From a virus (Duplodnaviria > Heunggongvirae > Uroviricota > Caudoviricetes): DNA of 15,788 nt. Location of the stretch: the IMG/VR virus record IMGVR_UViG_2563366800_000002; one strand, written 5' to 3'. Below the pieces are notes generated by a model. That model was not told the origin of the DNA. It was given only the letters and a program-made list of their open reading frames with translations, and ran no database searches. Within the stretch, counting starts at the first letter, position 1; each line of letters begins with the position of its first letter. This document shows, piece by piece, positions 1 to 15,251 of this stretch. The translations under genes and the position numbers were made by a program.

Positions 1-1224
1 ATGGCTGGCACAAACAAACTGAGCGACAAAAAGCTAAAAGCATTGCTGGGTTCTGAGCGTGAAGCGCCGATCATGATTGCCGATGGTGAGGGGCTAAGCG
101 TTAAGGTCTCGAAGCAAGGTAACGTTAGCTGGGTATTTTCATACCGGTTGGGAGGAAGGGGTAGCAAACTCGAACGTTTAACGCTTGGCCGTTACCCTGA
201 TATGCCGCTAAAACTTGCGCGAGAAAAGCGGGAACAGTGTCGCCAGTGGCTGGCTGGTGGGCTTGATCCGAAAACTGAGATTGAGCTGAGCACAGAAGAA
301 ACGCTTAAGCCTGTAACGGTTAAAGACGCCCTGGAATATTGGTTGGTGAATTACGCCAGGAGAAAGCGCAGTGATGAGGCGTTGGTGAGGGCGCAGCTAC
401 GCAAGCATATTTACCCGCGACTTGGTCGTTATCCGATCACCAGATGTGAAACCCGCCATTGGGTGGCCTGTTTTGACGAAATAAACCAGACTAAACCCAT
501 GACCGCCGGCCGCATGTTCCAGATTTCTAAACAGGCGTTACGTTTCTGCAAGGTTCGCCGTTATGCTGCCAGTGATGCTCTGGCCTTTCTCACCATTCAG
601 GATGTAGGCCAGCCATCTGGTCAACGTGATCGCGTATTGTCAGATAGCGAGCTGGCTGATGTGTGGCGCTGTACAGATAGCGATGATCAGCAGCCGTATT
701 ATTCACGTCTGCTCAAAATGCTGGTGCTTTTTGGTGCGCGAACGATGGAAGTTCGCCTTTCTCGATGGTCAGAGTGGGATTTTACATCGTGGATTTGGAC
801 TGTACCGAAAGAGCATAGCAAAACCAGAGAGAAAATCGTGAGGTCGATACCTGAAGCTATACGCCCGTGGCTGGAAGAGTTAAAGCGCGAGACAGGGAAA
901 ACAGGTTTGTTACTGGGCGAAGATCGTACCCGTCAGGCTGTATCATTGAAAGGGCGCAGGCTTTTTAAAGATTTTCACCATAACGAGCCGTGGACACTTC
1001 ACGATCTGCGTCGGACGTTTTCTACGGGGCTAAACAATATGGGTATAGCACCGCATATAGTCGAGCTGCTGTTGGGCCATGCCTTGCCGGGAGTTATGGC
1101 GATTTATAACCGTAGTCTTTACTTACCGGAGAAGCTGGACGCGCTGAACAAGTGGTATGACCGCTTAGAACTTCTCGCGGGTAATCACTCTAATATCGTT
1201 ATTTTAAAGGCTGGTGAAAAATGA
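1..1224 (+). CDS. int: Tyrosine site-specific integrase, P4-type
   Basis: 407-aa ORF. C-terminal catalytic region has HDLRRTF, LLGH and the AIYNR tyrosine typical of tyrosine recombinases; N-terminal region resembles the arm-binding domain of P4-like integrases. Gene sits at the island edge. Confidence 0.9.
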   Translation: MAGTNKLSDKKLKALLGSEREAPIMIADGEGLSVKVSKQGNVSWVFSYRLGGRGSKLERLTLGRYPDMPLKLAREKREQCRQWLAGGLDPKTEIELSTEETLKPVTVKDALEYWLVNYARRKRSDEALVRAQLRKHIYPRLGRYPITRCETRHWVACFDEINQTKPMTAGRMFQISKQALRFCKVRRYAASDALAFLTIQDVGQPSGQRDRVLSDSELADVWRCTDSDDQQPYYSRLLKMLVLFGARTMEVRLSRWSEWDFTSWIWTVPKEHSKTREKIVRSIPEAIRPWLEELKRETGKTGLLLGEDRTRQAVSLKGRRLFKDFHHNEPWTLHDLRRTFSTGLNNMGIAPHIVELLLGHALPGVMAIYNRSLYLPEKLDALNKWYDRLELLAGNHSNIVILKAGEK

Positions 1225-2024
1225 GAATTAGCCACAAAAAAGATTTGCCAACATGGTTTGATTTAGATAACTACACTCAATTTATTGGCATGTCAGATAA
1301 AGACTTATTTTATCAGTTGGTTGTTAGATATGACATGCTTGAAAACTTCTATCGATATGGCGGGTCTTTTTATAATGAACCTCTTACAAATAACGATGAA
1401 GTAGGAAGGATACTTGGAAATGGCGCGGTCGCTAATGCGATTGATAGAGCTACGTACTTCTATGATGCGTTTAAACTTCCTATTAAAAGAGAAGGTGTTT
1501 TGTCTGGTGGGGTTGCGTTACGACCAATGTCCATTGAAGACTTTATTTATATGAAAGATGCTGTAGATAATTATATGGAAAATAATTTTACGGGAACGGC
1601 TGAAAATTTAGTTTACCATTCATTTACAAGTGTTAGCTCATTTTTGGAACCAAATGACCTTTTTATTAAAGTTGATTTGTCACGCCCGGATGATTTATTG
1701 ATTGATGTGTTTAAAAAAAACCTCAAGAATTGGCGTGAGGAATTAAAAATAAAAGAAAAGGAAAAAACATACCAGTCATGGGAAACAATTAAAAAAAAGG
1801 TATACGATTATTCACTTTTCCCCGTAGTTGATTTGATGATCTGGGCTAAATCTCGCGGGGCATGCGTCACCAATGGCGTGCTTGCTGTGGCTGTGTTTCC
1901 GAACGGAGAGTATGACTCAACGCAGATAGCGCAAACCGTAAAGCCAAATATAGAAAAAATCTTCTCAATTTCTTCTATAGAAAAAATCAGGTCAGAACTT
2001 CAGGATAGAAAAATTCTTCCTTAA
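1221..2024 (+). CDS. Hypothetical protein, AT-rich orphan cargo gene (function unknown)
   Basis: 267-aa ORF whose ATG (1221) overlaps the integrase TGA (ATGA). Hand counts on three 60-nt lines give 23 to 38% GC, against 57% for a line in int. Lys/Asn/Asp/Tyr-rich protein with no motif I recognise. Confidence 0.6.
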   Translation: MRISHKKDLPTWFDLDNYTQFIGMSDKDLFYQLVVRYDMLENFYRYGGSFYNEPLTNNDEVGRILGNGAVANAIDRATYFYDAFKLPIKREGVLSGGVALRPMSIEDFIYMKDAVDNYMENNFTGTAENLVYHSFTSVSSFLEPNDLFIKVDLSRPDDLLIDVFKKNLKNWREELKIKEKEKTYQSWETIKKKVYDYSLFPVVDLMIWAKSRGACVTNGVLAVAVFPNGEYDSTQIAQTVKPNIEKIFSISSIEKIRSELQDRKILP

Positions 2025-2119
2025 TCTTGGTGGTCAAAACAATTTAATTTTCGTCTAGTGTGACATCCAATCACAAGGATAACAATAGCCCCCACAAACT
2101 TAGAAACAGTGGAGGCAAC

Positions 2120-2404
2120 ATGCAAATTATCACCTTTACCCCGCCAAATCCTGAACAACGCCGCACCATTCTGGAGGAGTACGGCTTCAAGTTCGATCGC
2201 CGAATCCGCGAAGATGAATGCAGCGAGATCACCAGTCTTTCTCGTTCGAGCCGCTGGAAGATGGAACAGCAGGGGCGCTTCCCGCCGCGCTGTCACTTTG
2301 GCCGCAACAGCTGTGCCTGGCTTCTTTCGGATGTGCTCTGGTGGGTTCGTAATCCGCCTGCCGTGGAAAACGTCAATAACCCGTACAGCCGCAAATCTGC
2401 TTAA
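2120..2404 (+). CDS. alpA: AlpA-family transcriptional regulator (phage/island excision-type regulator)
   Basis: GGAGG at 2111-2115 then ATG at 2120. The 94-aa product has the AlpA-like helix-turn-helix pattern (ITSLSRSSRWKMEQQGRFPP ... AWLLSDVLWWVRN). The ORF-track start at 2060 lacks an RBS. Confidence 0.75.
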   Translation: MQIITFTPPNPEQRRTILEEYGFKFDRRIREDECSEITSLSRSSRWKMEQQGRFPPRCHFGRNSCAWLLSDVLWWVRNPPAVENVNNPYSRKSA

Positions 2405-2424: not shown

Positions 2425-3108
2425 ATGAAAAATATTAATGCCCTTAACGGGCAGGGATTCGCTCACCCTGTTGCCAGTAAAAGCGATATTAGCGTGCAGC
2501 TTAAACAGCTTCCTGCCGTCGAATTTCACGGGCAACGCGTGGTGACGTTCGCAATGATTGATACCGCGCACCAGCGACCTAAAGACACGGCTAAAAAGAC
2601 TTTTCAGCGTAATCGCACTCGCTTCATTGATGGTGAGGACTTTTTTATTGTCGGCGCGTCAGAGGTCGAATGGGGAGGGGCTGGATATTTAGACAGGGGC
2701 ATTAAACGCCCTGGCAAAAAAATGAACAGTCCGATACGTGGCCGCGTAACACTGATTACGGAATCAGGCTATCTGCTGCTGACCAAACCGTTTAACGATG
2801 ATTTGGCCTGGCAGGTACAGCGCCAGCTCGTGAAAACTTATTTCCGTTGCCCGGAGTTTGTCACTTTCCATCATGTGGATCTGCCGTCGCTCGAAGAACT
2901 GATCGCCATGCCGGTTACTGATGCGCAAAACGCCGTGACTCGTGCGGACAAGCATTCTAAGCAGTTTCATGGCTCACAGGGCAGTAATGGAATGAATCTC
3001 CGCAAGAAGGAACTCAAAGTTCTGCGTCCGGCGGTACGGCTGGTAGATGCGATGGGGCAGATTGATTTCGATAAATATGAGTGGGAGGCGGCACATGATC
3101 GCGCATAA
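2425..3108 (+). CDS. ORF6N-domain protein (antirepressor-like DNA-binding protein)
   Basis: 227-aa ORF. N-terminal segment (FHGQRVVTF..IDTAH...DTAKKTFQRNRTRFIDGEDFFIV ... GRVTLITESGYLLLTKPFNDDLAWQVQRQLVKTYF) fits the ORF6N pattern as recalled from memory. Confidence 0.65.
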   Translation: MKNINALNGQGFAHPVASKSDISVQLKQLPAVEFHGQRVVTFAMIDTAHQRPKDTAKKTFQRNRTRFIDGEDFFIVGASEVEWGGAGYLDRGIKRPGKKMNSPIRGRVTLITESGYLLLTKPFNDDLAWQVQRQLVKTYFRCPEFVTFHHVDLPSLEELIAMPVTDAQNAVTRADKHSKQFHGSQGSNGMNLRKKELKVLRPAVRLVDAMGQIDFDKYEWEAAHDRA

Positions 3109-3225
3109 AACAAAGGCGACCGGGGGCGGTCGCCAATGGGAAAACACTAAACATAAGCCCGAACATCATAGCGATTTGCTGGCTGGTGGGCAATGTGATC
3201 AGTGTGCTGGCTTGCTGGTGGGCTG

Positions 3226-3408
3226 TCAGCCTTTGGGTTCTATGCCTTCTTTGCGTAGCTTATCACGACAAGCATTTTTTACCCATGAGCTGAAATTACC
3301 AGGCCCTGCAACTTCGTTAATTTGTTGCAACAATGTGTCTTCGAAGCGGATGTTTTTCTTTGTGCTGCCGGAGCGATCAAATTTTGGTTTCACATTTTCT
3401 TCTTGCAT
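3226..3408 (-). CDS. YlcI/YnfO-like small ribbon-helix-helix-type protein, candidate repressor
   Basis: 60-aa ORF on the minus strand with KNIRFEDTLLQQINEVAG..GNFSSWVKNACRDKL, matching the YlcI/YnfO signature as recalled. GGTGG lies 9 nt upstream of the ATG. Divergent from the primase operon. Confidence 0.6.
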   Translation of the reverse strand: MQEENVKPKFDRSGSTKKNIRFEDTLLQQINEVAGPGNFSSWVKNACRDKLRKEGIEPKG

Positions 3409-3454
3409 TGGTACGTACCACCGTTATAAACTGAAATCAAATGGTACGTACCAC
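3409..3454. promoter_or_regulatory. Two copies of a 13-bp palindrome-containing repeat TGGTACGTACCAC (3409-3421 and 3442-3454) in the divergent promoter region; candidate operator
   Basis: Exact direct repeat, 33 bp centre to centre; the GGTACGTACC core is a perfect palindrome. Abuts the start of the minus-strand gene and lies about 100 bp upstream of the + strand operon. Confidence 0.5.
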
Positions 3455-3483
3455 ATTAAAAATACGCAACCATTAAATACAGC

Positions 3484-3518
3484 GAAGCCCGGCAGTGCGG
3501 GAACACTAACCGGGCTTC
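3484..3518 (+). other. Leader hairpin: 9-bp perfect inverted repeat GAAGCCCGG / CCGGGCTTC with a 17-nt loop, upstream of the first operon gene
   Basis: Read directly from the sequence. Lies between the operator repeats and the ATG at 3554; not followed by a T-run. Confidence 0.4.
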
Positions 3519-3553
3519 TAACCACCAACGATAACGAGAGTATCGAGGCAGCT

Positions 3554-3757
3554 ATGAGAAATCATACCATACACCCGCAAGGGCGGGACTCGTACAACCT
3601 GAATAAATACATCTGGCGTTTTATCGCCCTGAGCACGGCACAACCGCGCGTGATTCACATCGTGGCCACCAGCGAACAGGAAGCACGCCAGCAATCCCCG
3701 GCTGGCTGCGTGATGGTATTCGCCGCCCGTATTCGTCAGGGGGTGTGCCATGCCTGA
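3554..3757 (+). CDS. Small protein, possible Icd-like host cell division inhibitor; first gene of the primase operon
   Basis: GAGG 5 nt upstream of ATG 3554. The 67-aa product (MRNHTIHPQGRDSYNLNKYIWRFIAL...VMVFAARIRQG) resembles Icd-like proteins of P4-family prophages from memory only. Its end overlaps the next ORF start. Confidence 0.45.
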   Translation: MRNHTIHPQGRDSYNLNKYIWRFIALSTAQPRVIHIVATSEQEARQQSPAGCVMVFAARIRQGVCHA

Positions 3758-12020: not shown

Positions 12021-13665
12021 GTACGCAGAAGGCGTAAAAAACGGCAAAATTACGGCCTGTAAACGACTGAAACAGGCCGTTAAACGGTATTTTTCTGACC
12101 TTGAAAACCCCCTTTACACGTTCGATCCGGAGGTCGTGGAGCGGTTTATTGCCTTTTCCAGGGTGTGTCCGCACGTAAAAGGCGCAATGCGCGGTAGCCC
12201 CATTGAGCTGGAGCCGTGGCAGCAGTTCGCCTTTGCGTGCATCCTGGGCTTTAAGGTTAAGGCCACCGGACGGCGCAAATACACCAGCGCATTCATTGAA
12301 GTACCTCGAAAAAATGCCAAATCCACGGTCGCCGCTATCCTGGCTAACTGGTTTCTGGTTATGGAAAACGGGCAGCAGGATATTTACACCGCCGCCGTGA
12401 GTCGTGATCAGGCGCGGATCGTGTTTGATGATGCGCGTCAGATGTGCCTTTTATCCCGACCGTTACGAAAGCGGGTAAATATTCAGGCACACAAGGTGAT
12501 ACACCCGAAAACCAACAGTCTGTTAAAGCCACTGGCAGCAAAAGCAGCAACCATTGAAGGTACAAACCCGAGTCTTGCCATTGTGGATGAATATCACCTG
12601 CACCCTGACAACGGGGTTTATTCCGCGCTTGAACTGGGAATGGGGGCACGCCCGGAGGGGCTGTTATTTGCCATCACCACATCGGGGAGCAACGTTGTTT
12701 CAGCCTGTAAACAACACTACGACTATTGCTGCCAGATACTGGATGGTGAAGAGGTGAACGAATCCATGTTCGTTCTGATTTATGAGCTGGATGATGAAAG
12801 CGAGGTTGACGATCCGGCGATGTGGATAAAGGCGAATCCCAATATCGATGTTTCCGTAGATCGTGAAAAACTGGCCTCAACCATCCAGAAAGCGCGGGGT
12901 ATTCCGTCGCAGTGGGTGGAAATGCTCACCAAGCGATTCAATATCTGGTGTCAGGGGGCTACGCCGTGGATGGGTAACGGTGCATGGGCTGAGTGCGCCG
13001 GAACGTTCACGGAGGAAGATTTACACGGTCAGGAGTGTTACGCGGGGCTTGATTTATCATCCACAAGCGACATCTCCAGCGTGTGCTATGCCTTTCCGGT
13101 TGGTAAAACCATTATGCTGGTTTCTCGTCACTATCTGCCGGAATTTCAGCTACAGAACCCCGCCAATAAAAACCGCGCCATCTATCGCCAGTGGGCAAAG
13201 GCGGGCTGGATACGCACAACACCGGGTGACTGCATTGATTATGACCGTATCCGTGATGACATCATGGCGGATGCAGAGAATTTCAATATCAGGCTGGTGG
13301 GCTTTGATACGTGGAACGCCACGCACCTGAGAACGCAGTTACAGGGGGCAGGCTTTGAGGTGGAGCCGTTCCCTCAAACCTACCTTCGTTTCAGTCCGGC
13401 GGCGAAATCGTTCGAGGTTTTTGTTAACCGGAAGGTGATTGTGCATCGTGGTGATCCGGTGCTGGCCTGGTCAATGAGTAATGTTGTGATGCAGAGTGAC
13501 GCGAACGCCAATATCAAGCCGAACAAGAAAAAATCATCCAACAAGATAGACCCGAGCGTTGCGGCGCTGATGGCGTTTGGCACATTCCAGGCTGAGCATG
13601 AGGAATTTGCATTTGATATGAGCGACAGCCAGAAAGAGCGACTAGCGGCATTTGATGGGGTATGA
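12004..13665 (+). CDS. terL: Terminase large subunit
   Basis: 553-aa ORF. N-terminus (W.EYAEGV.NGKI.A ... IELEPWQQF) and ATPase region are typical of TerL. The only in-frame start near the N-terminus is TTG at 12004, overlapping terS by 17 nt. Confidence 0.8.
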   Translation: MTAWHEYAEGVKNGKITACKRLKQAVKRYFSDLENPLYTFDPEVVERFIAFSRVCPHVKGAMRGSPIELEPWQQFAFACILGFKVKATGRRKYTSAFIEVPRKNAKSTVAAILANWFLVMENGQQDIYTAAVSRDQARIVFDDARQMCLLSRPLRKRVNIQAHKVIHPKTNSLLKPLAAKAATIEGTNPSLAIVDEYHLHPDNGVYSALELGMGARPEGLLFAITTSGSNVVSACKQHYDYCCQILDGEEVNESMFVLIYELDDESEVDDPAMWIKANPNIDVSVDREKLASTIQKARGIPSQWVEMLTKRFNIWCQGATPWMGNGAWAECAGTFTEEDLHGQECYAGLDLSSTSDISSVCYAFPVGKTIMLVSRHYLPEFQLQNPANKNRAIYRQWAKAGWIRTTPGDCIDYDRIRDDIMADAENFNIRLVGFDTWNATHLRTQLQGAGFEVEPFPQTYLRFSPAAKSFEVFVNRKVIVHRGDPVLAWSMSNVVMQSDANANIKPNKKKSSNKIDPSVAALMAFGTFQAEHEEFAFDMSDSQKERLAAFDGV

Positions 13666-13955
13666 CGAGAATGACTGAAACCGATCTACTAAAAATAATT
13701 CGCTGCGTTACCGGAGTCTGCCAGGCAACAGGCAAACCGGAGGCCAAGCAGCCGGATACCGTCACCGCTGAAAATTACGCGCGTGTGGTGGCTAAGGTGA
13801 TGCGCCGTGACGGTATTGAGCTTAACGGCGTGGATATGCGCAACATACGAACCAGAGTCCTTGAGTTGCTGGCATACCGTCGCCGTTCTCAACAACGGAG
13901 GGAGAGCGCGAAAAATACTTACCAGTGGAAGAAGCCGGAACGGTTGCGGCGGTAG
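13662..13955 (+). CDS. Hypothetical protein, last gene of the packaging operon
   Basis: 97-aa ORF; ATG 13662 overlaps the terL TGA (ATGA). Basic C-terminus (RRRSQQRRESAK). No recognisable motif. Confidence 0.4.
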   Translation: MTRMTETDLLKIIRCVTGVCQATGKPEAKQPDTVTAENYARVVAKVMRRDGIELNGVDMRNIRTRVLELLAYRRRSQQRRESAKNTYQWKKPERLRR

Positions 13956-14294
13956 ATTCCTGATATTCAGGAAAACCACGAATCTGTGGGTTTTACTGGC
14001 GCGGTTACGGCGGTGACACGCACCGAGGCAGAACAATTACCGTAGGTTAAAGCGACAGTATTCACACCAAAGGCAGAAATTAGCGGTTAACGTAACTGAC
14101 TGATATTTTCAGGAACAGCCAACGGCTGAGGCCGGAGCTATAAGAATAGCTTTGGGTACAGTCCTCAGTTTTGAGGGATGTTAACCAACTGAATAATAAG
14201 CAAACCTCAAAATTGAGTTTTGTATCTGCCTGAGTTATTTCTGTGCTAACTTGTTGATATTCCCGACGGCCCAAAAATGGGTTGGCTGGTGGGT

Positions 14295-14412
14295 GAGTTG
14301 CAGATTTGCAACTCGACCATGAAACTACGGAAACTACCCGTAGTTTGGGTAGTAAGAGCAACACCCAGATTTTGGGGCTTACTCGCGATCCCCAAATAAA
14401 GGGGATCGGTGG
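14295..14412. repeat. 118-bp structured repeat, copy A
   Basis: Six mismatches to copy B over 118 aligned positions, no indels. Starts with the near-palindrome GAGTTGCAGATTTGCAACTC and contains further inverted repeats (AAACTACGG / CCGTAGTTT; CCCC / GGGG). Confidence 0.75.
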
Positions 14413-14442
14413 CATCACTGGCCCCACTTTCCTGATGTGTTT

Positions 14443-14594
14443 GCGGGTTATTTGGGAGAGGTTGCGGGTTATTTTGAATGACTTGCGGGTTACGATTTGG
14501 CTAACATTTGAACATGTCATTTTTCAACGCATTGATATTAAATAATAAAAAATACTTAGCACGCGAAGATAACCCGCTAACCCGCATAACCCGC
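14443..14594. repeat. Second iteron cluster: GCGGGTTAT / GCGGGTTAC x3 (14443-14493), AT-rich spacer, complement ATAACCCGC-type x3 (14569-14594)
   Basis: Same 9-mer and the same inverted layout as the origin at 6521-6643, about 7.9 kb away. Confidence 0.55.
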
Positions 14595-14846: not shown

Positions 14847-15251
14847 AAGAAATATCGTTTCTCATATGTGAGTACCGAGGGCGGAATTCCGCCTTCGGTT
14901 ACTTATTGTGCTCATGCACAGGGAGGGGCGGGTCAAATCTCTGTACCCTGACGTCTTCCGGACTGCCCGCTCCATCGATTTTTTATACCCGCGAAAAATG
15001 CTTCACGCTGGTGGGCATGATGCGTGGGGATGCTGATAATGGGTTATTGTGGGATAGATGTCTCATACAATAAGAGATTCATAATTTGCTTTTTAATACT
15101 GTTATACTCGCCGCCTTTCTACCGTGCTCATGCTTTCGCATATTTTCGGCTTTGTGCAATAATCCGTATATCACTCGGTGTATCACTTTTAGCTAAAATG
15201 CATGGCGTGTTTGTTAATTTAACTGATTAAAATCAGTGGGATATAAAGTTT

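What the first reader, a model, noticed from the sequence alone, without database searches (positions are those of the whole stretch)
1221..2024. AT-rich orphan gene fused to the integrase stop: candidate accessory or anti-phage cargo
A 267-aa ORF starts on an ATGA overlap with the integrase stop and is far more AT-rich than anything else in the island (hand counts of 23 to 38% GC on three lines, against 57% for a line in int). The integrase-proximal slot is a known hotspot where P4-like satellites and PICIs carry defence or competition genes. I see no Walker, HEPN (R-x4-6-H), HNH or obvious PD-(D/E)xK motif, so it does not fit a family I know. The last 150 nt or so are GC-richer, suggesting a mosaic 3' end.
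Basis: partly seen in the sequence, partly recalled or inferred. Interest (0 to 1): 0.8.

Follow-up and report, generated by a model that had tools for sequence, protein, structure and literature searches.

The report
DUF6387 cassette gene in phage satellite
The AT-rich gene fused to the integrase stop is real but is not an orphan: it belongs to a large uncharacterised family (Pfam DUF6387) found so far only between the integrase and the AlpA regulator of phage satellites and related islands, where it is one of several swappable optional genes, so an anti-phage role is plausible but unproven.

Summary
The ORF at 1221-2024 (267 aa, ATGA overlap with the int stop, GC 0.36 against 0.51 for the rest of the island) is confirmed. 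The window is an E. coli capsid-forming PICI (cf-PICI) inserted between gcd and hpt.

The gene is not an orphan. It is a full-length member of Pfam DUF6387 (103 bits, cutoff 28.9), a family with about 1300 clusters at 50% identity.

All 21 family contexts I sampled read int -> DUF6387 -> alpA. The literature places the same family next to the AlpA-type excision factor in an EARL (ROD21-like) genomic island. It is almost absent from phage and plasmid records.

The slot is hypervariable. Beside integrases at least 83% identical and mostly near-identical AlpA sit five DUF6387 subtypes (23-37% identical to each other), two unrelated families and one singleton, all AT-rich.

The slot is also optional. 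Three cf-PICIs with other integrase types, including the O157:H7 element that I infer to be the experimentally functional EcCIEDL933 type, have only a 364-409 nt non-coding gap there.

Best reading: an optional, fast-diversifying conflict gene (anti-phage or anti-competitor) that acts by binding rather than catalysis. Its function is untested.

The parts
1221..2024 (+). DUF6387-family gene (267 aa), the finding itself
   Evidence: ORF. Pfam PF19924 full-length match, 103.2 bits. 100% identical to RefSeq WP_016236857.1, annotated 'DUF6387 family protein'. AlphaFold model pLDDT 89.7, all-alpha.
1..1224 (+). P4-type tyrosine integrase (Arm-DNA-bind_3 + Phage_int_M + Phage_integrase), the left conserved flank of the cassette
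   Evidence: Pfam. At least 91% identical within each of two E. coli integrase types while the slot gene changes.
1221..1224 (+). ATGA start/stop overlap between int and DUF6387, implying co-transcription and probably translational coupling
   Evidence: Sequence. A 4-nt overlap is seen in 5 of the 6 genome loci checked in detail, and the same ATGA junction appears in L004, L005, L006, L008 and L019 and in L025, L028, L085 and L087.
1821..1940 (+). GC-richer patch inside the ORF, encoding aa 201-240, the conserved family core (P201, D204, L205, W208, I216, V220, F226, P227, G229, E230, Q238, T239)
   Evidence: GC 0.52-0.55, against 0.27-0.33 in most of the remaining 60-nt blocks of the ORF. This is also the region of highest column conservation.
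1950..2016 (+). Three direct copies of ATAGAAAAAWTC, starting at 1950, 1977 and 2005
   Evidence: 3 matches found against 0.12 expected. The first two mirror the peptide repeat IEKI, 9 aa apart, which is conserved in the family. The third is in a different reading frame. Significance unknown.
2025..2087 (+). Cassette-specific non-coding tail. It varies together with the slot gene.
   Evidence: In alignments of seven loci, similarity resumes only at about 2088. No sigma-70 consensus promoter was found on the + strand between 900 and 2500.
2088..2116 (+). Conserved hairpin GCCCCCAC-N13-GTGGAGGC. Its 3' arm contains the alpA Shine-Dalgarno sequence GGAGG. It is the start of the conserved alpA module.
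   Evidence: RNA fold. It is conserved across loci whose slot genes differ. Covariation support is weak: 2 of 6 pairs, -4.2 kcal/mol.
2120..2404 (+). alpA (Phage_AlpA helix-turn-helix regulator), the right conserved flank
   Evidence: Pfam. At least 95% identical in 7 of the 8 E. coli islands compared, whatever the slot gene.
15200..15221 (+). Right copy of the 22-bp att direct repeat GTATATCACTCGGTGTATCACT, marking the island end just before hpt
   Evidence: The left copy lies 44 bp upstream of the int ATG in locus L001, outside the window. The island lies between gcd and hpt.

Best explanation
The ORF is a genuine protein-coding gene of Pfam family DUF6387. It sits in a capsid-forming phage-inducible chromosomal island (cf-PICI) of E. 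coli.

It is the occupant of an optional, recombination-swapped, AT-rich single-gene cassette that runs from the integrase stop codon to about 32 nt upstream of alpA.

Inferred from the anatomy: it is co-transcribed with int and probably translationally coupled to it (ATGA overlap). That would mean it is made while the island sits integrated, and again on entry into a new cell.

Inferred function: it is an accessory conflict protein, either anti-phage or directed against competing mobile elements. It would work by binding a target protein rather than by catalysis. The poorly conserved central third (about aa 41-156) would be the specificity region, and the conserved N-terminal motif and C-terminal helical domain would be the scaffold.

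Shown here: the gene, its family, the fold class, the synteny, the cassette boundaries, the slot's variability and its dispensability.

Not shown: expression, the target, and any phenotype.
For: Family and coding status:
- Full-length Pfam hit.
- 1300 clusters at 50% identity at E <= 1e-3, and 452 at E <= 1e-10.

The window is a cf-PICI: int, alpA, DUF927 primase, SSB, capsid, protease, portal, connector, HNH, TerS and TerL, with no tail or lysis genes among the ORFs scanned, a 22-bp att repeat, and a position between gcd and hpt.

The slot is hypervariable next to conserved flanks:
- The E. coli identity matrix gives int >= 91% within each type, AlpA >= 95% in 7 of 8 islands, and slot proteins at 100%, 34% or <= 28%.
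- In 50 IMG/VR contigs the slot holds DUF6387 in 19, family B in 20, family C in 10 and a singleton in 1.
- The DUF6387 subtypes are 23-37% identical to each other.
- The same rcnR att site carries DUF6387 in one island and family B in another.

Other points:
- All occupants are AT-rich, GC 0.34-0.40 against about 0.49.
- The slot is optional. Non-coding gaps of 364-409 nt sit there in the O157:H7 cf-PICI and in two others. EcCIEDL933 from O157:H7 is experimentally inducible and transferable (bioRxiv 10.1101/2022.09.08.507074).
- The PICI 5' end is a published immune-system location (PMC11364771).
- A BREX system follows a related integrase at the same att site.
- Non-enzymatic reading: the confident model is all-alpha with no structural neighbour, long family members carry no fused domains, and the family is acidic with a median pI of 5.25.
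- Conservation is high at both ends and low in the middle.
Against: - No match to any of the 5027 PADLOC models, and only a PHROG of unknown function.
- The family is confined to one context. All 21 sampled loci read int -> DUF6387 -> alpA.
- It occurs in 1 of 50,697 phage records and 1 of 72,556 plasmid records, and that 'plasmid' looks like an excised satellite. Typical defence genes are also found in prophages, plasmids and defence islands.
- Within this integrase clade the slot was never empty (50 of 50), and only three families plus one singleton, all of similar size, share it. That looks more like functional alleles than an open cargo site.
- In the EARL island ICEKp258.2 the family sits next to the AlpA-family regulator annotated as the excision factor (PMC10763509). 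The family description reports an 843-bp unknown gene beside that factor in most EARL islands (PMC6035254). EARL islands are not known to be phage satellites.
- No experiment exists for any family member. 'DUF6387' occurs in only two papers, both gene tables.
Confidence: 0.42

Rival explanations
1. Modulator of the island's own switch. DUF6387 and its slot analogues would tune when alpA (the master activator, or the excision factor in other islands) is expressed. It could do this, for example, by sensing a helper-phage protein, making it a non-essential functional analogue of the SaPI Stl gatekeeper that sets helper specificity.
For: - DUF6387 lies directly upstream of alpA and is co-oriented with it in 21 of 21 contexts. 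This holds even when two extra ORFs separate it from int (L026).
- It also sits next to the AlpA-family excision factor in the EARL island ICEKp258.2 (PMC10763509), and an 843-bp unknown gene accompanies that factor in most EARL islands (PMC6035254).
- The conserved alpA module begins only 32 nt upstream of the ATG, at a hairpin that includes the Shine-Dalgarno sequence. Any alpA promoter must therefore lie in the variable cassette, or alpA is read through from int.
- The conserved ends and variable middle fit a constant-partner plus variable-sensor design.
- Only a few families share the slot, and it is never empty in this integrase clade.
- The family is absent from phages and plasmids.
Against: - No helix-turn-helix or other DNA-binding fold is detectable, and the family is acidic.
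- Near-identical AlpA proteins pair with unrelated slot proteins, which argues against a specific AlpA partner.
- cf-PICIs with an empty slot exist, including the O157:H7 type whose alpA-dependent induction by helpers is published (10.1101/2022.09.08.507074). A slot protein is therefore not needed for induction.
- EcCIMP1's slot gene is a tiny unrelated ORF that its authors treat as accessory (PMC11773190).
Confidence: 0.25
2. Establishment or anti-defence factor. It would be made together with the integrase immediately after the satellite DNA enters a new cell, and it would neutralise a host barrier (restriction or another defence) by binding it.
For: - The ATGA coupling to int ties its expression to the moment of integration.
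- The protein is acidic, all-alpha and non-enzymatic.
- Fast diversification fits an arms race.
- Confinement to integrating islands fits a function tied to the element's own entry.
Against: - The pI of 5.4 is only mildly acidic compared with classical DNA mimics. That comparison rests on my own knowledge of ArdA and Ocr, not on a test here.
- There is no similarity to any solved anti-restriction protein.
- In the EARL island ICEKp258.2 the gene is not next to int (PMC10763509).
- Family B genes are not overlapped with int; they start about 92 nt after its stop.
Confidence: 0.1
3. Other cargo with no role in conflict, such as a host-adaptive factor or an addiction-type toxin, or a silenced passenger gene kept only by linkage.
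For: - Low GC fits xenogeneic silencing. This is an inference and H-NS binding was not tested.
- One of the 12 near-identical E. coli copies is split by a 1-nt indel into two annotated CDSs (H5).
- The slot can be empty.
Against: - A family of about 1300 clusters with conserved full-length architecture, strongly conserved residues (D204 invariant; Y18, R36 and R172 in 103 of 104 sequences) and a confidently folded model indicates purifying selection for a function.
- Strict synteny argues against a random passenger.
Confidence: 0.12

Closest known systems
Pfam PF19924 (DUF6387), including the '843-bp gene of unknown function' beside the excision factor of EARL/ROD21-like genomic islands and the DUF6387 gene at the end of ICEKp258.2
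   Same: Full-length HMM match. Similar length (267 aa against 280-287 aa). It lies immediately upstream of an AlpA-family gene and is co-oriented with it, in an island that uses a P4-type integrase (PMC6035254, PMC10763509).
   Different: Here it lies inside a phage satellite and overlaps the int stop. [quoted passage not shown] Identity to the enterobacterial relatives I sampled is only 29-37%. I did not align it directly with SEN1999.
Immune systems carried at the 5' end of PICIs (Fillol-Salom et al. 2022, as cited in PMC11364771) and the defence hotspots of P4-like satellites
   Same: Integrase-proximal position, variability between otherwise near-identical elements, AT-richness, and dispensability for the satellite life cycle.
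   Different: There is no match to a known defence model and no effector domain. The slot holds only single genes of 216-318 aa from three families plus one singleton, rather than an open assortment of systems. No phenotype has been tested.
SaPI master repressor Stl
   Same: It lies between int and the island's regulatory or lytic genes, is highly divergent between related islands, and is of similar size.
   Different: No helix-turn-helix domain was detected. It is not divergently transcribed from the regulatory gene. cf-PICIs with an empty slot exist, including the type reported as inducible, so it cannot be an obligatory repressor.
Other occupants of the int-alpA interval: YfjH of the E. coli K-12 prophage CP4-57, EcCIMP1_002, and the families B and C found here
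   Same: Same genomic position. Families B and C are AT-rich, and all are of unknown function.
   Different: Unrelated in sequence (hhalign probability below 2%). yfjH is on the opposite strand. EcCIMP1_002 is a much smaller ORF (PMC11773190).

Membership tests
Pfam DUF6387 (PF19924) | Whole-protein HMM score above the gathering cutoff, with near full-length coverage | tested here: met
   103.2 bits against a cutoff of 28.9. Residues 2-249 match profile positions 3-249 of 258.
Pfam DUF6387 (PF19924) | Family-typical context: directly upstream of an AlpA-family gene in an island with a P4-type integrase | tested here: met
   The window reads int-DUF6387-alpA. The same order holds in 21 of 21 sampled family loci.
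Capsid-forming PICI (cf-PICI) | int, alpA and a replication module, plus its own capsid, protease, portal, connector, HNH, TerS and TerL, with no tail or lysis genes, in an element of about 15 kb flanked by att repeats | tested here: met
   Pfam on the window's larger ORFs, RefSeq annotation of the identical locus, and 22-bp direct repeats about 15.3 kb apart.
Capsid-forming PICI (cf-PICI) | Induction by a helper phage and transfer in its own small capsids fitted with helper tails | not testable with these tools
   This needs an experiment. It has been published only for EcCIEDL933 (10.1101/2022.09.08.507074).
Known anti-phage defence systems (PADLOC-DB v2) | Match to a model of a known or candidate defence protein | tested here: not met
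   0 families at E <= 1. The other slot occupants also gave none. Current DefenseFinder models could not be run.
PICI 5' accessory / immune hotspot | Located between int and the regulator, with different genes at that position in otherwise closely related islands | tested here: met
   The slot is empty in three cf-PICIs with other integrase types.
PICI 5' accessory / immune hotspot | The gene confers protection against phages or competing elements | not testable with these tools
   No experiment exists for any DUF6387 protein.
Stl-like master repressor | N-terminal helix-turn-helix DNA-binding domain | tested here: not met
Stl-like master repressor | Required to keep the island quiescent, so present in every functional island | tested here: not met
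   The slot is empty in the O157:H7 cf-PICI and in two others.
DNA-mimic anti-restriction proteins (ArdA/Ocr type) | Sequence or fold similarity to a solved member, and a very acidic surface | tested here: not met
   No PDB sequence hit and no fold hit. The pI is 5.43.

The most novel reading that the evidence does not exclude
DUF6387 would be a new, structurally unprecedented, single-protein phage-recognition module specific to AlpA-type integrative islands. Its hypervariable central region would bind a phage protein. That binding would either block the phage or set which helper can switch the island on. The int-alpA slot would then be a cassette locus of interchangeable specificity determinants (DUF6387, family B, family C) for Gram-negative satellites, whose induction trigger is not yet understood.
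Probability: 0.3. Interest if true: 0.75.

Novelty: new member of a known kind. Interest (0 to 1): 0.45.

Why it matters
How Gram-negative PICIs and cf-PICIs sense their helper phages, and what they carry to fight competitors, is only partly known.

This analysis turns a vague 'AT-rich orphan' into a defined target. It is a large family specific to these islands, with a confident model that has no structural neighbour. It sits in a precisely bounded cassette that recombination swaps between near-identical satellites.

cf-PICIs with this type of large terminase are in about 10% of complete E. coli genomes (534 of 5426).

Natural isogenic comparisons already exist for direct tests: the same integrase and alpA with DUF6387 subtype 1, subtype 2, family B or family C in the slot, and empty-slot cf-PICIs among those with other integrase types.

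If the gene proves to be a defence or helper-specificity factor, it would add a new protein family and a new hotspot logic. If it has no phenotype, it remains an ordinary DUF.

Tried and rejected
- **Known defence, phage and curated family libraries.** PADLOC gave nothing. PHROGs gave only phrog_23422, of unknown function. NCBIfam gave nothing.
- **Sequence search of the PDB.** The single sequence gave only coiled-coil noise. A 104-sequence profile gave 0 hits.
- **Idea that the other slot proteins are very diverged DUF6387.** Rejected: hhalign probability is below 2% for the L002 protein, the L003 protein and YfjH.
- **Idea that family B starts with an AlpA/excisionase-like helix-turn-helix.** It looks so by eye, but hhalign against AlpA and a PDB profile search gave no support. 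I make no such claim.
- **Idea that the three ATAGAAAAAWTC repeats are operator sites.** Two of them are explained by a conserved peptide repeat, and they are absent from loci with the same alpA. Left as a minor observation.
- **Idea of an obligatory slot function (Stl-like).** Weakened by the empty slots in other cf-PICIs.
- **Fused domains in longer family members.** None found.
- **Rfam and tRNA scans of the window.** Nothing found.
- **Genome-collection scan with the family alignment.** It gave only 6 loci, and the broad alignment was too diverse to seed a scan.
- **Fillol-Salom 2022 (Cell).** Not held in the paper library. A text search for the names I recalled for its defence systems returned only unrelated papers.
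Full report
**1. What is in the sequence**

The window is nearly all of a 15.3-kb island.
- Its genes run on the + strand: a P4-type tyrosine integrase (1-1224), the ORF in question (1221-2024), alpA (2120-2404), and an ORF6N protein.
- Next come an Icd-like ORF, DUF4222, a DUF927 primase/helicase and SSB.
- They are followed by a full HK97-type head and packaging module: capsid, S78 protease, portal, connector, HNH, TerS and TerL.
- The larger ORFs scanned include no tail or lysis genes.
- The identical sequence lies in E. coli strain DAX4 between gcd and hpt.
- A 22-bp direct repeat flanks the island. The right copy is at window 15200-15221, and the left copy is 44 bp upstream of int.

This is the architecture of a capsid-forming PICI (cf-PICI), as described in bioRxiv 10.1101/2022.09.08.507074. 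Elements with this type of TerL occur in 534 of 5426 complete E. coli genomes. The exact int-ORF-alpA segment occurs in 12 of them.

**2. Check of the observation**

The ORF, its ATGA overlap with the int stop and its low GC are all real.
- GC is 0.356 (GC3 0.32), against 0.509 for the rest of the island. It is the most AT-rich 804-nt stretch of the window.
It encodes the most conserved residues of the protein family and is followed by an AT-rich tail, so it is not a mosaic joint.

**3. It is not an orphan**

- The protein is a full-length member of Pfam DUF6387 (103 bits), and RefSeq already names it so.
- An exhaustive profile search found 1300 clusters at 50% identity at E <= 1e-3, and 452 at E <= 1e-10. 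Nearly all of the 150 listed are single-domain proteins of about 250-300 aa.
- Longer members carry no extra domain.
- In a 104-sequence alignment, D204 is invariant. Y18, R36 and R172 are each in 103 of 104 sequences, F13 in 102, and P10, W208 and P227 in 96-98.
- The N-terminal 40 residues and residues 157-245 are conserved, and residues 41-156 are poorly conserved.

**4. Structure**

- With the deep alignment, AlphaFold gives a confident all-alpha model (pLDDT 89.7, pTM 0.83).
- Foldseek against viral models finds nothing, and a profile search of PDB sequences finds nothing.
- No catalytic or DNA-binding fold is recognisable. The family is acidic, with a median pI of 5.25.

**5. Context of the family**

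- In all 21 sampled contexts the order is int -> DUF6387 -> AlpA-family gene. The loci come from E. coli, Shigella, Serratia, Klebsiella, Yersinia, Xenorhabdus, Enterobacter, Tenebrionibacter, Edaphovirga and metagenomes. Their replication and packaging modules differ. Identity to the query ranges from about 20% to 37%.
- The 4-nt overlap with int is usually present.
- Where two small ORFs are inserted after int, DUF6387 still sits directly before alpA.
- The family is found in 1 of 50,697 phage records, which is a 1.8-kb fragment. It is found in 1 of 72,556 plasmid records, which is a 17-kb circular element with int, capsid and terminase and is most likely an excised satellite.
- The only two papers that mention DUF6387 list it in gene tables next to an AlpA-type regulator.
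- In ICEKp258.2 it sits next to the AlpA-family gene annotated as the excision factor (PMC10763509). The description of the EARL/ROD21-like islands says that factor is 'accompanied by an 843 bp gene of unknown function' in most members (PMC6035254).
- No functional data exist.

**6. The slot is hypervariable**

- Among eight E. coli islands there are two integrase types, each at least 91% identical within the type. AlpA is at least 95% identical in seven of the eight.
- Their slot proteins are either identical, 34% identical (a second DUF6387 subtype), or unrelated.
- A scan of IMG/VR with the window's integrase returned 50 cf-PICI-like contigs. Each has one main ORF of 216-318 aa in the slot, apart from one truncated 171-aa DUF6387 copy. 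These are DUF6387 in 19, a second family 'B' in 20, a third family 'C' in 10, and a singleton in 1.
- The five full-length DUF6387 subtypes are only 23-37% identical to each other.
- All four kinds occur beside integrases at least 83% identical to the window's.
- All occupants are AT-rich: 0.34-0.40, against about 0.49 for the rest of each locus.
- The same DUF6387 allele (97% nt identity) also sits in an island at a different att site, with a recombination joint inside the int 3' end.
- The cassette runs from the int stop to about nt 2088. The conserved alpA module begins there, with a hairpin whose 3' arm contains the alpA Shine-Dalgarno sequence.
- An element with an 86.5%-identical integrase at the same gcd/hpt site carries a BREX system after int.

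**7. The slot is optional**

- cf-PICIs with other integrase types have only a 364-409-nt AT-rich non-coding gap between int and alpA. This holds for the O157:H7 element at roxA/phoQ, which has 47% identical int and 47% identical AlpA. It also holds for the elements at cspD and at tqsA.
- EcCIEDL933, the O157:H7 prototype, is experimentally inducible, alpA-dependent and transferable (10.1101/2022.09.08.507074).
- I examined another O157:H7 strain, so the identity of that element with EcCIEDL933 is an inference.
- A slot protein is therefore not required for the cf-PICI life cycle.

**8. Interpretation**

The data fit an optional, fast-diversifying accessory cassette.
- The published location of PICI immune systems at the 5' end (PMC11364771), together with the AT-richness, the allelic diversity and the dispensability, makes a conflict function the leading hypothesis. 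That function would be anti-phage or anti-competitor.
- The fold and the conservation pattern suggest binding rather than catalysis.
- Against this stand the lack of any defence-model hit and the strict confinement of the family to the position just upstream of alpA. These keep a regulatory reading alive, in which the gene modulates alpA or excision-factor expression or sets helper specificity. Smaller possibilities are an establishment factor or neutral cargo.
- I give 0.42 to the conflict reading, 0.25 to the regulatory reading, and the rest to the other rivals and to possibilities I have not listed.

**9. Verdict**

- The 'orphan' label and the 'mosaic 3' end' are wrong.
- The cargo interpretation is partly supported but unproven.
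- The gene is a new member of a known kind: a DUF-family gene in a known satellite hotspot.
- Its interest is moderate. It would rise considerably if a phage or induction phenotype were found, because the family is large, specific to these islands and without a structural neighbour.

Noticed in passing
window 2088-2116: Hairpin GCCCCCAC-N13-GTGGAGGC immediately upstream of alpA. Its 3' arm contains the alpA Shine-Dalgarno sequence GGAGG. It marks the point where sequence conservation resumes after the variable cassette, and it is kept across loci with different slot genes. It could block alpA translation on read-through transcripts from int. Covariation support is weak (2 of 6 pairs).
   Followed up: partly
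window 1950-2016: Three direct copies of ATAGAAAAAWTC, spaced 27 and 28 nt apart (3 found, 0.12 expected). Two mirror a conserved peptide repeat (IEKI...IEKI). The third is in another reading frame. They are present only in the near-identical loci L001 and L019.
   Followed up: partly
L002:4320-5108, L015:4820-5644, L017:2785-3603, L018:2467-3396, L084:3048-3842, L081:3558-4487: A second uncharacterised family ('B', 262-318 aa, no Pfam or PADLOC hit) occupies the same int-alpA slot. It has a conserved N-terminal motif, roughly P..EY..L.RA..LLGC...DL.H, and is as diversified as DUF6387 (down to about 21% identity). The helix-turn-helix look of the motif got no statistical support.
   Followed up: partly
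L003:3237-3887 and 10 IMG/VR loci (e.g. L053:2379-3029); L034:1221-2060: A third slot family ('C', 216-219 aa) is followed by a long (about 600 nt) repeat-containing non-coding stretch before alpA, which includes tandem CATTCAACAG units. There is also a singleton 279-aa slot protein with no relatives in the sample.
   Followed up: no
L016:4881-8187 (E. coli Ec1120, gcd/hpt site): An integrase 86.5% identical in nucleotide sequence to the window's, at the same att site, is followed by a WYL-domain gene and a BREX system (DUF1819, DUF1788, brxC) rather than a satellite. The same integrase type therefore also mobilises or anchors a defence island.
   Followed up: no
L080:2756-3119, L082:3746-4154, L083:2856-3220: In cf-PICIs without a slot gene, the int-alpA gap is still strongly AT-rich (GC 0.32-0.36) and 364-409 nt long. 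This suggests that the AT-richness of the interval is partly a property of the alpA regulatory region itself.
   Followed up: partly
L020 (CP018459.1, Klebsiella 'plasmid' pKp_Goe_795-4, 16,971 bp circular): This record, deposited as a plasmid, carries int, DUF6387, an AlpA-like DNA-binding gene, capsid, terminase and a 3.4-kb gene annotated as tape measure. It looks like an excised circular cf-PICI-like satellite.
   Followed up: no
window 13662-13955 (+) and 14080-14520 (-): Two ORFs (97 and 146 aa) lie between TerL and the right att repeat, in a lower-GC region (about 0.44). Neither has a Pfam or PADLOC hit. They are a possible 3'-end accessory region of the island.
   Followed up: partly
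NZ_CP026935.2 (E. coli CFS3292), hit H5: One of the 12 near-identical copies has a 1-nt length difference, and the DUF6387 gene is annotated there as two CDSs. It is a probable frameshifted allele.
   Followed up: no
window 3047-3757: The 236-aa mechanical ORF matches the Icd-like cell-division-inhibitor domain only at residues 188-231. RefSeq annotates a short Icd-like CDS there instead, plus a small antisense gene. The long ORF is probably not the real gene.
   Followed up: no
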